From NCBI RefSeq assembly GCF_002854065.1, contig NZ_CP024147.1: DNA of 64,000 nucleotides. The stretch is one strand, 5' to 3'. Made by a program: the position numbers. Positions 36,565-39,500 of this stretch are shown here, piece by piece. The DNA comes from Escherichia coli (GTDB lineage Bacteria; Pseudomonadota; Gammaproteobacteria; Enterobacterales; Enterobacteriaceae). Positions within the stretch are counted from its first letter, which is position 1. Each line of letters starts with the position of its first letter.

Positions 36565-39500
36565 ATTTGCTTAGCGCAGAGTGAAGATTAACCTATCTGC
36601 CCATTCCCCAAATGTTTAACGCGGCGCTTAACTTCTTCCTGCTTACCAGCGTTAAACGGACGTGCATCCGGGCTACCTAAATATCCGCACACGCGGCGAG
36701 TTACCGACACACGGGAGGCGTCATGGTTACCACATTTCGGGCAAGTAAAGCCTTTGCTGGTGCACTCGAACTCACCGGTAAAGCCACACTCGTAGCACTC
36801 ATCAATCGGTGTATTGGTGCCGTAATACGGTACATGCTGATAGCTGTAATCCCAGACATCTTCCAGCGCTTTCAGGTTGTGCTGAATGTTTGGATACTCG
36901 CCGTAGCAAATGAAACCACCGTTCGCCAGCGGCGGGTAAGGCGCTTCAAAGTCGATCTTGTCGTACGGGTTAACCTTCTTCTCCACATCAAGGTGGAAAC
37001 TGTTGGTGTAGTAACCTTTATCGGTCACGCCCGGCACCACGCCAAACTCAGCAGTATCGAGACGGCAGAAGCGGTCGCACAGGTTTTCACTCGGCGTGCT
37101 GTAGAGACTGAAACCATAACCCGTTTCTTCTTTCCACTGATCCACTGCCTGACGCAGACGTTCAACAATCGCGATACCTTTCGCGCGGAGCTGCTCGTTG
37201 TCGTAAACATGCTCGCCGCCGAACAGCGCGTTAATGGTTTCGTGGATGCCGATGTAACCCAGCGAAATAGACGCACGACCGTTTTTGAAGATTTCAGAAA
37301 CATCATCGTCAGCATTCAGACGCACGCCACAAGCACCTTCCATATAAAGGATCGGGGCCACGCGCGCTTTCACGCCTTCCAGACGAGCGATACGGGTCAT
37401 CAGCGCCTTACGTGCCAGCACCAGACGTTCATCCAGCAGCTTCCAGAAGGTGGCTTCATCGCCTTTTGCTTCCAGAGCAATACGCGGCAGGTTCAGGCTG
37501 ATCACGCCGAGGTTGTTACGACCATCGTGGATCTGCTCGCCGTTTTCATTTTCCCACACGCCGAGGAAGCTGCGGCAGCCCATCGGGGTTTTAAACGAAC
37601 CGGTGACTTTCACTACCTGATCGTAGTTCAGGATATCCGGATACATGCGCTTGCTTGCGCACTCCAGCGCCAGCTGTTTGATGTCGTAGTTCGGATCGCC
37701 TTTTTTATGGTTCAGACCATCGCGAATCGCAAACACCAGTTTCGGGAACACCGCAGTTTTACGGTTTTTACCGAGACCTGCGATACGGTTACGCAGGATA
37801 GATTCCTGAATCAGGCGCGATTCCCAGCTGGTGCCCAGACCAAAACCAAAAGTTACAAACGGCGTTTGACCGTTGGCGGTATGCAGGGTGTTTACTTCGT
37901 ACTCCAGCGACTGGAAGGCATCGTAGCACTCTTTAATGGTACGAGAGTTAGCGTAGCCTTCTGCGTCCGGGATGCTCCACTCTTCTGCGGTCTTGCGATG
38001 TTTGTTGTAGCTGGCGGTGACAAACGGTGCCAGCACTTCATCGATACGGTTAATGGTGGTGCCGCCATAAATATGGCTGGCAACCTGAGCAATAATCTGC
38101 GCAGTTACCGCGGTTGCCGTTGAGATCGACTTCGGCGGTTCAATCTCGGCGTTCCCCATTTTAAAGCCCTGGGTCAGCATGCCTTTCAGGTCGATCAACA
38201 TGCAGTTGAACATCGGGAAAAACGGTGAGTAATCGAGATCGTGATAGTGAATATCGCCACGCTCATGTGCCTGCACCACGTCACGCGGCAGCAGGTGCTG
38301 ACGTGCATAGTGTTTAGCCACGATCCCGGCCAGCAGGTCGCGCTGGGTTGGAATCACCTTGCTGTCTTTGTTGGCGTTTTCGTTGAGTAACGAGGCGTTG
38401 GTCTGCTCGACCAGACCACGGATCTCCTGGTTCAGGCGACCGCGTTTTTCACGTTCAATGTCGCGATCGTGACGGTACTCGATGTAAGCGCGAGCCAGTT
38501 GTTTGTATGGACCCGACATCAGCTGGTTTTCAACTGCGGTCTGGATCTCGTTGATATCCACCTGGTTGCGGCCCTGCATCTGCTCGCTGACAACCGCGGC
38601 AACAGTGGCGCAATAATCGGCATCATCGACTTCCGCTGCTTTAGCTGCACGCAGAATCGCTTCTTTGATGCGCTCTGATTTAAACGGCACTTTGCAGCCG
38701 TCTCGTTTCATCACATGCGGTGTCATGATCGCTCCATATTTTTAAGAACAGGTTATCCACAGAAATTGGGAAAGGCGTTTTCCGGTTTTTTCGTTTCGTT
38801 TTCCGGTGCTTTCCGCAATCGCCATCCGCTTATCCACAACGCCGCACCTTTTTCGTGGGGAGCTGTAGTAGCAATTATAGTCGATTAATACAACATATTG
38901 GGTTGGGACGCATTTTAAAGTCTATATATAGTGCTTTGCATCAAGGATGTTTTAACTTTTTTTGATGTAGCTCAAAGTAAAAAGCAGAGCGTACGGATGA
39001 CGGGCGCTACAGCGTTATGTAAATTTTTTAATGAATTTGCTGGTTGAAAAATCAACAAAAACAACATGCTGACAGACAAAACCCCGGAATGACCGGCATT
39101 ACCGGGGCTTAGGGAAGATTTACTTCTGTAACCACCAGACAGCCTCAAAAGGCCGTAAATTCATGGCACAGGGTTGTGGTGAGGCTTCTTCGTAGTTATG
39201 CATCACAAGCTGCCAGTTGCCGCGCATTTGCCCTGGCTGCCAGGGTTGGATCTCACGGCTAAGGTTGGCAATGACCAGCAAGGTTTGCCCCTTCCATTCA
39301 CGGCGATAGCACCACAATACAGGGCTGTTTGGCAGCAGATCCTGGTAATTGCCCCATGTCAGGATGGCTTCTTGCTTACGCAGTGCGATTAACTTTTGGT
39401 AGGTGTAAAACACCGAGGACTCATCGGCCAGCGCGGCTTCTACGTTGATTTGTTGATAGTTATCGCCCAGGCCAATCCACGGTTCGCCAGCCGTAAACCC

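What the first reader, a model, noticed from the sequence alone, without database searches (positions are those of the whole stretch)
38890..38975. Candidate NrdR boxes and FNR site far upstream of nrdD
Two AT-rich palindromic 16-mers with NrdR-box character (ACAACATATTGGGTTG; TCTATATATAGTG) and a near-consensus FNR site (TTGATGTAGCTCAA) lie 165-250 bp upstream of the nrdD ATG. This fits anaerobic FNR activation and NrdR repression with a long 5' UTR, but exact positions relative to the transcription start are unknown to me.
Basis: partly seen in the sequence, partly recalled or inferred. Interest (0 to 1): 0.3.

Follow-up and report, generated by a model that had tools for sequence, protein, structure and literature searches.

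The report
Known E. coli nrdDG promoter control region
This stretch is the well-studied control region of the E. coli anaerobic ribonucleotide reductase operon (nrdDG), with its published FNR activator sites and NrdR repressor boxes around the promoter, so the finding is correct but ordinary.

Summary
The window is E. coli. nrdD lies on the minus strand with its ATG at 38726. The three quoted motifs are present at the stated coordinates.

They are the published regulatory sites of the nrdDG promoter:
- **NrdR:** the 57-bp DNA used to measure E. coli NrdR binding (KD 160 nM with ATP+dATP) is an exact match to 38883-38939.
- **FNR:** the 54-bp probe carrying both FNR sites matches 38926-38979, except for two spacer bases.

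The published site positions (-33.5 and -64.5) put the transcription start at 38904 and give a 178-nt leader. So the sites are "far" only from the ATG.

- The promoter-proximal NrdR box is 38888-38903, not 38890-38905.
- The other NrdR box is the 16-mer 38919-38934.
- A second, weaker FNR site at 38931-38944 was missed.

The NrdR pair is unique in the 64 kb (0 of 200 shuffles match it) and is found in all 80 Enterobacterales nrdD loci examined. A lone FNR-like site is near chance level. The FNR tandem and its conservation are not.

The leader also carries two perfect DnaA boxes, which are already ChIP-seq-documented.

Verdict: already known, low interest.

The parts
36588..38726 (-). nrdD coding sequence (anaerobic ribonucleoside-triphosphate reductase), ATG at 38726; nrdG follows at 35964..36428 (-)
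   Evidence: ORF list. 100% identical DNA is annotated nrdD in RefSeq E. coli genomes. K-12 annotation.
38732..38735 (-). Shine-Dalgarno GGAG, 6 nt before the ATG
   Evidence: Read from the sequence. Nearly invariant in 46 Enterobacteriaceae sequences.
38742..38761 (+). 'Double DnaA box' TTAAGAACAggTTATCCACA (perfect 9-mer at 38753-38761), at +144..+163 of the leader
   Evidence: Pattern search. Identical to the site listed for the nrdD DnaA ChIP-seq peak in PMC11317965. The 9-mer is conserved in most of 80 loci.
38830..38838 (+). Second perfect DnaA box TTATCCACA, at +67..+75 of the leader
   Evidence: The DnaA ChIP-seq peak coordinate 4462739 is ATG+79, about window 38805, between the two boxes.
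38874..38879 (-). Perfect TATAAT hexamer at +26..+31, part of a conserved block T[AT]ATCGnCTAnnAT directly after NrdR box 2; role unexplained
   Evidence: Conservation profile and per-locus flanks.
38888..38903 (.). NrdR box 2 (promoter-proximal), ACCCAATATGTTGTAT on the gene strand, +2..+17
   Evidence: 13/16 to consensus. PWM rank 4 of 63,985. Lies inside the NrdR-binding 57-mer. Conserved in 80 loci.
38904..38904 (-). Transcription start (+1), derived from published FNR site positions; the leader is 178 nt
   Evidence: Both FNR site centres (38937.5 and 38968.5), minus 33.5 and 64.5, give 38904. This is my arithmetic; the primary mapping papers could not be read.
38912..38917 (-). -10 hexamer TAAAAT (-13..-8), in the 15-bp spacer between the NrdR boxes
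   Evidence: Read from the sequence. TTA[A/G]AATGC is nearly invariant in Enterobacteriaceae.
38919..38934 (.). NrdR box 1 (distal), GCACTATATATAGACT on the gene strand, -30..-15
   Evidence: 13/16 to consensus. PWM rank 2. Lies inside the 57-mer. Overlaps FNR site 1 by 4 bp, as described for Salmonella.
38931..38944 (.).
   Evidence: The site is 9/10 (TTGATGCAAATCAC) in most Enterobacteriaceae.
38962..38975 (.). FNR site 2, TTGAGctacATCAA on the gene strand (9/10), centred at -64.5; the site reported as necessary and sufficient for activation
   Evidence: The FNR ChIP-seq summit converts to about 38968 (plus my coordinate offset).
39079..39110 (-). Intrinsic terminator of the upstream treBC operon (hairpin plus U run); the treC stop codon is at 39120-39122
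   Evidence: RNA fold -17.1 kcal/mol, z -2.19. ORF list.

Best explanation
This is the promoter and operator region of the E. coli nrdDG operon (class III, anaerobic ribonucleotide reductase and its activase), read on the strand opposite to the gene.

Transcription starts at about 38904 from a weak sigma70 promoter with -10 TAAAAT and no good -35.

- **Without oxygen:** dimeric [4Fe-4S] FNR binds the strong upstream site (centre -64.5) and the weaker downstream site (-33.5) and activates the promoter.
- **When dATP is present together with ATP or ADP:** tetrameric NrdR binds two palindromic 16-bp boxes whose centres are 31 bp (three helical turns) apart, at -30..-15 and +2..+17. The boxes bracket the -10 element and the start site, and box 1 overlaps FNR site 1 by 4 bp. 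NrdR therefore most likely blocks RNA polymerase and competes with FNR.

The transcript carries a 178-nt leader. The DNA of this leader holds two perfect DnaA boxes that bind DnaA in vivo.

Shown experimentally in the literature: the binding events, in vitro repression by NrdR, and the FNR dependence. Inferred: the occlusion/competition mechanism and any effect of DnaA on transcription.
For: **Identity**
- 100% identical DNA in E. coli genomes, annotated treC | nrdD.
- Only 4 intergenic differences from K-12.

**NrdR**
- In vitro repression of the K-12 PnrdD.
- The box pair is unique in the window: 0 of 200 shuffles, and PWM ranks 2 and 4 with a matrix trained on other operons.
- The 31-bp spacing equals the published rule.

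**FNR**
- The published 54-mer with both sites matches with 2 spacer mismatches.
- Positions -33.5 and -64.5 both give the same +1.
- ChIP-seq peak at nrdD.

**Conservation**
- All 80 Enterobacterales nrdD loci have a box pair scoring at least 21/32, against a maximum of 19 in two control sets.
- 71 of 80 loci have an FNR-like site (at least 8/10) within 120 bp upstream.
- In Enterobacteriaceae, the distances FNR2 / FNR1 / box 1 / -10 / box 2 are fixed to the base pair, and these blocks stand out in the conservation profile.
Against: - I could not read the primary papers that mapped the start site (Boston & Atlung 2003; Roca et al. 2008; Torrents et al. 2007). No genome-wide TSS table was accessible either. 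The +1 at 38904 is therefore derived from positions quoted in a secondary source.
- The FNR positions (-33.5, -64.5) are not the canonical class II or class I positions (-41.5, -61.5, from my own knowledge). PMC10425943 itself calls the activation mechanism 'a remaining mystery'.
- The simple sigma70 scan did not call this promoter, as expected for an activator-dependent promoter lacking a -35.
- This strain differs from K-12 at two bases between the FNR sites, with untested effect.
Confidence: 0.93

Rival explanations
1. The main (or a second) promoter lies about 38 bp further downstream and uses the perfect TATAAT at 38879..38874, starting near 38866. FNR sites 1 and 2 would then sit at about -71.5 and -102.5, and NrdR box 2 would cover the -35 region. 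Alternatively, the hexamer could be a sigma70-dependent pause signal in the early transcribed region.
For: - The block T[AT]ATCGnCTAnnAT directly after NrdR box 2 is conserved in 46 Enterobacteriaceae sequences, with the key -10 positions T1, A2, A5 and T6 at 80-99%.
- It is kept even in short-leader species that lack the DnaA boxes (L028, L043).
- The published -33.5 position for an activating FNR site is acknowledged as puzzling.
- Basal sigma70 transcription occurs in vitro without FNR.
Against: - Published work places +1 so that the sites are at -33.5 and -64.5, and a construct is defined as '87 bp until TSS'.
- The TAAAAT/TAGAAT hexamer between the NrdR boxes is more strongly conserved, nearly invariant.
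- No -35 or TG extension precedes the TATAAT.
- The upstream FNR site, not the nearer one, is the essential one.
Confidence: 0.1
2. The motifs are chance AT-rich palindromes in an intergenic region and have no regulatory role.
For: - Single FNR-like sites with at most 1 mismatch occur at near-chance frequency in the window: 6 against 2.96 expected.
- Two equally high NrdR-matrix hits lie inside the yjgN coding sequence.
Against: - The pair statistics: 0 of 200 shuffles for both the NrdR pair and the FNR tandem.
- Base-pair-exact conservation across genera.
- Published binding and repression data on the identical DNA.
Confidence: 0.01
3. The long gap between the sites and the ATG exists because the leader encodes a structured RNA regulator (a riboswitch or attenuator) or a small upstream ORF, and that element is the main control.
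For: - The leader is 178 nt.
- It contains a local inverted repeat GGAAAG...CTTTCC at about 38769-38815.
Against: - No Rfam family matches at E<=0.4.
- The leader fold is not better than shuffles: z -0.75, and 40 of 200 shuffles fold as well.
- The middle of the leader is poorly conserved apart from the two DnaA boxes.
- Only short, unconserved-looking ORFs of 28-31 aa with GTG/TTG starts lie on the gene strand.
- The conserved 9-mers occur as direct repeats in one family and inverted repeats in others, which fits a DNA-binding protein rather than an RNA helix.
Confidence: 0.03

Closest known systems
E. coli K-12 nrdDG promoter (PnrdD): two FNR sites at -64.5 / -33.5 plus NrdR boxes 1 and 2 (Boston & Atlung 2003; Roca et al. 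2008; Torrents et al. 2007; Rozman Grinberg et al. 2025)
   Same: It is the same locus. The NrdR 57-mer is identical, both FNR 14-mers are identical, and the gene order treC-nrdD-nrdG is the same.
   Different: There are two base differences (38953, 38955: GTTAAAAC against K-12 GCTCAAAC) in the spacer between the FNR sites, and two more further upstream. The exact 96-bp allele of the window is carried by 1,786 of 5,425 complete E. coli genomes.
NrdR operators of E. coli nrdHIEF and nrdAB (box 1+2)
   Same: Two 16-bp palindromic boxes with a central AT, a 15-bp spacer (31 bp centre to centre), similar NrdR affinity (113-160 nM), and overlap with the promoter. A matrix built from them picks out the nrdDG boxes.
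   Different: These are different operons and partner regulators: Fur/IscR for nrdHIEF, DnaA/H-NS for nrdAB, and FNR/H-NS for nrdDG. Only here does an NrdR box overlap an FNR site.
Salmonella Typhimurium nrdDG promoter (Panosa et al. 2010)
   Same: The arrangement of FNR sites and NrdR boxes is the same, with NrdR box 1 overlapping an FNR site. Box mutations derepress the promoter in vivo. The S. enterica locus L003 aligns colinearly.
   Different: FNR site 1 is closer to consensus in Salmonella (TTGATGCAAATCAC, 9/10) and site 2 is weaker (8/10).
DnaA-regulated nucleotide-synthesis promoters with double DnaA boxes (nrdAB, purH; Stringer, Fitzgerald & Wade 2024)
   Same: A perfect TTATCCACA paired with a weaker box 2 bp away. 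A DnaA ChIP-seq peak lies at nrdD.
   Different: At nrdD the boxes lie inside the transcribed leader (+67..+75 and +144..+163), not upstream of the promoter. The effect on nrdDG transcription has not been shown.

Membership tests
NrdR operator (tandem NrdR boxes) | Two 16-bp palindromic boxes matching the NrdR-box consensus | tested here: met
   38888-38903 and 38919-38934 each score 13/16, and they are the only 16-mers at or above 13 in 64 kb. They rank 4 and 2 of 63,985 with a matrix built from the nrdHIEF/nrdAB boxes. The consensus string itself is from my memory of Rodionov & Gelfand 2005; the matrix is.
NrdR operator (tandem NrdR boxes) | Box centres an integer number of helical turns apart (31-32 bp; 15-16 bp spacer) | tested here: met
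   The spacing is 31 bp. The published rule is given. All 80 related loci show spacing of 31 or 32 bp.
NrdR operator (tandem NrdR boxes) | Located at the promoter of a ribonucleotide reductase operon | tested here: met
   The boxes lie at -30..-15 and +2..+17 of the nrdDG start derived, bracketing the conserved -10.
NrdR operator (tandem NrdR boxes) | [quoted passage not shown] | not testable with these tools
   Published for the identical 57-mer: KD 160 nM (exact match). Published for the K-12 PnrdD in vitro transcription.
FNR-activated promoter | Match to TTGAT-N4-ATCAA | tested here: met
   Site 2 matches 9/10 (38962-38975) and site 1 matches 8/10 (38931-38944). The tandem is unique in the window, with 0 of 200 shuffles matching it.
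FNR-activated promoter | Site centred at a canonical activating position (class II about -41.5; class I about -61.5, -71.5 ...; from my own knowledge) | tested here: not met
   The published positions are -33.5 and -64.5. This architecture is a documented but atypical FNR promoter, and its activation geometry is described as unresolved.
FNR-activated promoter | FNR occupancy and FNR-dependent anaerobic induction | not testable with these tools
   Published: FNR binds both sites by SEC-SAXS and EMSA. The ChIP-seq summit 4460925 (U00096.2) converts to about ATG+242, window about 38968, with the 1,977-bp version offset (the conversion is my arithmetic).
FNR-activated promoter | Conservation of the site in orthologous promoters | tested here: met
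   71 of 80 loci have a site of at least 8/10 within 120 bp upstream of NrdR box 1, and 55 of 80 have one of at least 9/10. The offsets are fixed at -42 and -11 in Enterobacteriaceae.
DnaA-box cluster / double DnaA box | Consensus 9-mer TTATCCACA, paired with a second box 2-3 bp away | tested here: met
   Two perfect 9-mers are the only ones in the window. The 9-mer at 38753-38761 is paired with TTAAGAACA 2 bp away, as listed. The box at 38830-38838 has no obvious partner (my reading).
DnaA-box cluster / double DnaA box | DnaA occupancy in vivo | not testable with these tools
   Published ChIP-seq peak at nrdD with 62-fold coverage.
Cis-regulatory leader RNA (riboswitch / attenuator) | Match to a known RNA family, or a fold more stable than shuffles | tested here: not met
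   No Rfam match better than E 0.45, and none within the leader. Leader fold z-score is -0.75.

The most novel reading that the evidence does not exclude
The conserved hexamer TAnnAT (a perfect TATAAT in E. coli, 38879..38874, +26..+31) directly after NrdR box 2 is functional. It could be the -10 of a second, downstream nrdDG promoter for which the two FNR sites fall at class-I-like positions (about -71.5 and -102.5) and NrdR box 2 covers the -35 region. Or it could be a sigma70-dependent pause site. Either would help explain the acknowledged oddity of an activating FNR site at -33.5.
Probability: 0.1. Interest if true: 0.3.

Novelty: already known. Interest (0 to 1): 0.08.

Why it matters
The region shows how one promoter combines an oxygen signal (FNR), the dNTP/ATP balance (NrdR) and probably replication-initiator status (DnaA) to set anaerobic dNTP supply. 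All three inputs are already published for this locus, so the scan has re-found textbook-level regulation. Its value here is as a positive control: a reader working from sequence alone identified real operators. The only small additions are the base-pair-exact conservation map across 80 Enterobacterales and an unexplained conserved TATAAT-containing block in the early leader.

Tried and rejected
- **Primary papers:** I tried to read the papers with the mapped start site and box definitions (Torrents 2007, Boston & Atlung 2003). They are not held.
- **Genome-wide TSS tables:** Cappable-seq (file truncated), Kim 2012 (truncated, no nrdD), Thomason 2015 and Kröger 2012 (not held), Conway 2014 (no supplements), and a text search for nrdDp or the expected coordinates (nothing relevant).
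- **Simple sigma70/terminator scan:** it did not call the nrdDG promoter or the treC terminator. The terminator was confirmed by folding instead.
- **Leader RNA element:** rejected (Rfam, fold).
- **Upstream ORF in the leader:** no convincing candidate.
- **Extra NrdR-matrix hits at 56074 and 56152:** they lie inside the yjgN coding sequence and are 78 bp apart, so they are treated as chance.
- **TTGATTTTTCAACC upstream (about 39033-39046):** considered as a third FNR site. It reads as TTGA-N4-TCAA, 2 bp too short, and it does not reach 8/10 in the scans (my reading).
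Full report
**What is at the coordinates.** The gene they relate to, nrdD, is the 712-aa ORF 36588..38726 on the minus strand. nrdG lies downstream (35964..36428) and treC upstream (39120..40922), all on the minus strand. A 651-bp query across the region is 100% identical to many complete E. coli genomes, where it is annotated treC | nrdD. K-12 MG1655 has the same layout and differs at only four intergenic bases. The motifs therefore lie 164-249 bp upstream of the nrdD ATG, as claimed, but they should be read as reverse complements.

**Is it more than chance?**
- NrdR, consensus scan: with the 16-bp NrdR-box consensus (ACACWATATATWGTGT, from my memory of Rodionov & Gelfand 2005), only two 16-mers in the 64 kb reach 13/16. 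They are 38888-38903 and 38919-38934, exactly 31 bp apart. None of 200 dinucleotide-preserving shuffles gives such a pair.
- NrdR, independent matrix: a matrix built only from the E. coli nrdHIEF and nrdAB boxes, taken from the oligonucleotides printed in PMC12176259, ranks these two sites 4th and 2nd of 63,985 positions.
That box was called 2 bp out of register.
- FNR: one near-consensus site is not remarkable by itself (6 sites with at most 1 mismatch against 2.96 expected). Such a 9/10 + 8/10 tandem occurs once in the window and in none of 200 shuffles.

**Match to published experiments.**
- The 57-bp duplex used to measure E. coli NrdR binding to 'the nrdDG promoter' has KD 160 nM with ATP+dATP and 152 nM with ADP+dATP, with no binding with ATP alone (PMC12176259). 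It is an exact match to window 38883-38939 on the minus strand.
- The same paper states that the two nrdDG boxes are 15 bp apart, which is what I find.
- A 2025 preprint shows NrdR-dependent repression of sigma70 transcription from the K-12 PnrdD in vitro. It also confirms that in the K-12 genome only the three RNR operons have box pairs three helical turns apart.
- The 54-bp duplex used to show that two FNR dimers bind the nrdDG promoter (PMC10425943) matches 38926-38979 with two mismatches (38953, 38955). Both mismatches are in the spacer between the sites.
- That paper, citing Roca et al. 2008, places site 1 at -33.5 and site 2 at -64.5 from the transcription start. It reports that site 2 binds more tightly and is necessary and sufficient for activation, while site 1 only boosts it.
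- The FNR ChIP-seq summit listed for nrdD is 4460925 in U00096.2 coordinates (PMC3688515). With the 1,977-bp length difference between genome versions, it converts to about ATG+242, or window about 38968, the centre of site 2. The conversion is my arithmetic.

**Geometry.** The centres of the two FNR sites (38937.5 and 38968.5), minus 33.5 and 64.5, both give +1 = 38904. This derived start yields the following layout:

| Element | Window coordinates | Position relative to +1 |
|---|---|---|
| FNR site 2 | 38962-38975 | centre -64.5 |
| FNR site 1 | 38931-38944 | centre -33.5 |
| NrdR box 1 | 38919-38934 | -30..-15 |
| -10 hexamer TAAAAT | 38917..38912 | -13..-8 |
| NrdR box 2 | 38888-38903 | +2..+17 |
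| ATG | 38726 | after a 178-nt leader |

- The two NrdR boxes bracket the -10 element and the start point.
- Box 1 overlaps FNR site 1 by 4 bp, exactly as described for the Salmonella promoter.
They are on the promoter, and the distance to the ATG is leader.
- The likely mechanism is promoter occlusion by the NrdR tetramer plus competition with FNR at site 1. This step is inference; the binding and repression are published.

**Comparative evidence.** A scan of one genome per species returned 80 nrdD loci across Enterobacterales.
- Every one has a best NrdR-box pair of at least 21/32 at 31-32 bp spacing in the 420 nt upstream of nrdD. The maximum in two control sets (inside nrdD, and 421-840 nt upstream) is 19.
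- 71 of 80 loci have an FNR-like site of at least 8/10 within 120 bp upstream of box 1.
- Within Enterobacteriaceae the layout is fixed to the base pair. FNR site 2 lies at -42 and site 1 at -11 from the centre of box 1. A 15-bp spacer reading TTA[A/G]AATGC follows, and then box 2.
- In a 46-sequence alignment these elements are the conserved blocks, and the TAAAAT hexamer is nearly invariant.
- In other families (Yersiniaceae, Pectobacteriaceae, and others) the NrdR pair is kept. The FNR site sits 28-51 bp from box 1, mostly in steps of about 11 bp.

**The leader.**
- No Rfam family matches (best E 0.45, none in the leader).
- The 188-nt leader-plus-start region folds no better than shuffles (z -0.75).
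- Only short GTG/TTG ORFs lie on the gene strand. A riboswitch or leader-peptide explanation is therefore not supported.
- What the leader does contain is two perfect DnaA boxes, TTATCCACA on the + strand at 38753-38761 and 38830-38838. These are the only two in the window and two of only 32 in the whole K-12 genome.
- They are strikingly conserved. Most of the 80 loci carry two perfect DnaA-box 9-mers. The two are in the same orientation, 77-79 bp apart, in most Enterobacteriaceae. They form an inverted pair 55-57 bp apart in most other-family loci, with the first box abutting NrdR box 2 and followed by a second CATCCACA 3-4 bp later.
- This is already published. DnaA ChIP-seq found a strong peak at nrdD and lists TTAAGAACAggTTATCCACA as its double DnaA box (PMC11317965). 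NrdD protein rises in DARS2 mutants (PMC12371093).
- Whether DnaA blocks elongating polymerase in the leader is untested.

**What remains odd.**
- The FNR positions are not the canonical -41.5 / -61.5 (my knowledge). PMC10425943 calls the activation geometry a remaining mystery.
- Directly after NrdR box 2 there is a conserved block T[AT]ATCGnCTAnnAT, which in E. coli contains a perfect TATAAT at +26..+31 (38879..38874).
- A start near 38866 would put the FNR sites at about -71.5 and -102.5.
- I rate a second promoter or a sigma70 pause element as possible but unlikely (about 0.1). The published +1 is used consistently, the TAAAAT hexamer is better conserved, and there is no -35 or TG extension.
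- I could not obtain any primary TSS data.

**Verdict.** The feature is the known nrdDG promoter/operator region of E. coli. It is an allele carried by about a third of complete genomes (1,786 of 5,425 exact over 96 bp), differing from K-12 at two spacer bases. Novelty: already known. Interest: low.

Noticed in passing
window 38753-38761 and 38830-38838 (+ strand); partner weak box 38742-38750: Two perfect DnaA boxes (TTATCCACA) lie inside the nrdD 5' leader, and they are the only ones in the 64 kb. They are conserved in most of 80 Enterobacterales loci, but the arrangement differs. In Enterobacteriaceae they are direct repeats 77-79 bp apart. In most other families they form an inverted pair 55-57 bp apart, with a double box abutting NrdR box 2. 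DnaA binding here is already published (ChIP-seq, PMC11317965). The effect on transcription is not.
   Followed up: partly
window 38874-38887 (minus strand TAATCGACTATAAT): A conserved block sits directly downstream of NrdR box 2 and contains a perfect TATAAT at +26..+31 of the published start. The T, A, A and T positions are 80-99% conserved in 46 Enterobacteriaceae sequences. In other families the same position holds a DnaA box. Its function is unexplained: a second -10, a sigma70 pause, a degenerate DnaA box, or an extended operator.
   Followed up: partly
window 38953 and 38955 (spacer between the two FNR sites): This strain reads GTTAAAAC where K-12 reads GCTCAAAC. The exact 96-bp allele 38885-38980 is found in 1,786 of 5,425 complete E. 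coli genomes. The neighbouring AAACA (38952..38948) is invariant across Enterobacteriaceae. The effect of the polymorphism on FNR activation is unknown.
   Followed up: partly
window 56074-56089 and 56152-56167: Two 16-mers (GTACTTTATATAGTCT, ATACTACGTATTGTAT) score as high as the real nrdDG boxes with the NrdR matrix. However, they lie inside the AT-rich yjgN coding sequence (55461..56684, +) and are 78 bp apart, not 31-32 bp. They are probably chance matches.
   Followed up: partly
window 38980-39026 (minus strand ...TTTACATAACGCTGTAGCGCCCGTCATCCGTACGCTCTGCTTTTTAC): The sequence upstream of FNR site 2 is moderately to strongly conserved in Enterobacteriaceae, especially TTTTTAC abutting the FNR half-site and GCCCGnCAT. 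No regulator is assigned here. H-NS is reported in the literature to act on nrdDG.
   Followed up: no
window 39033-39046 (minus strand GTTGATTTTTCAAC): A perfect 5-bp inverted repeat with a 4-nt centre (TTGA-N4-TCAA) lies between the treC terminator and the nrdDG promoter. It looks like an FNR/CRP-family half-site pair, but the spacing is 2 bp too short.
   Followed up: no
L028 and L043 (Escherichia sp. ESNIH1; Enterobacteriaceae bacterium UBA7338), upstream of position 1501: These two loci keep the FNR sites, the NrdR pair (32-bp spacing) and the TAnnAT block. Their leader is much shorter (box 2 centre 63 nt from the ATG) and has no DnaA boxes. They are a natural deletion variant that could show what the DnaA-box leader contributes.
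   Followed up: no
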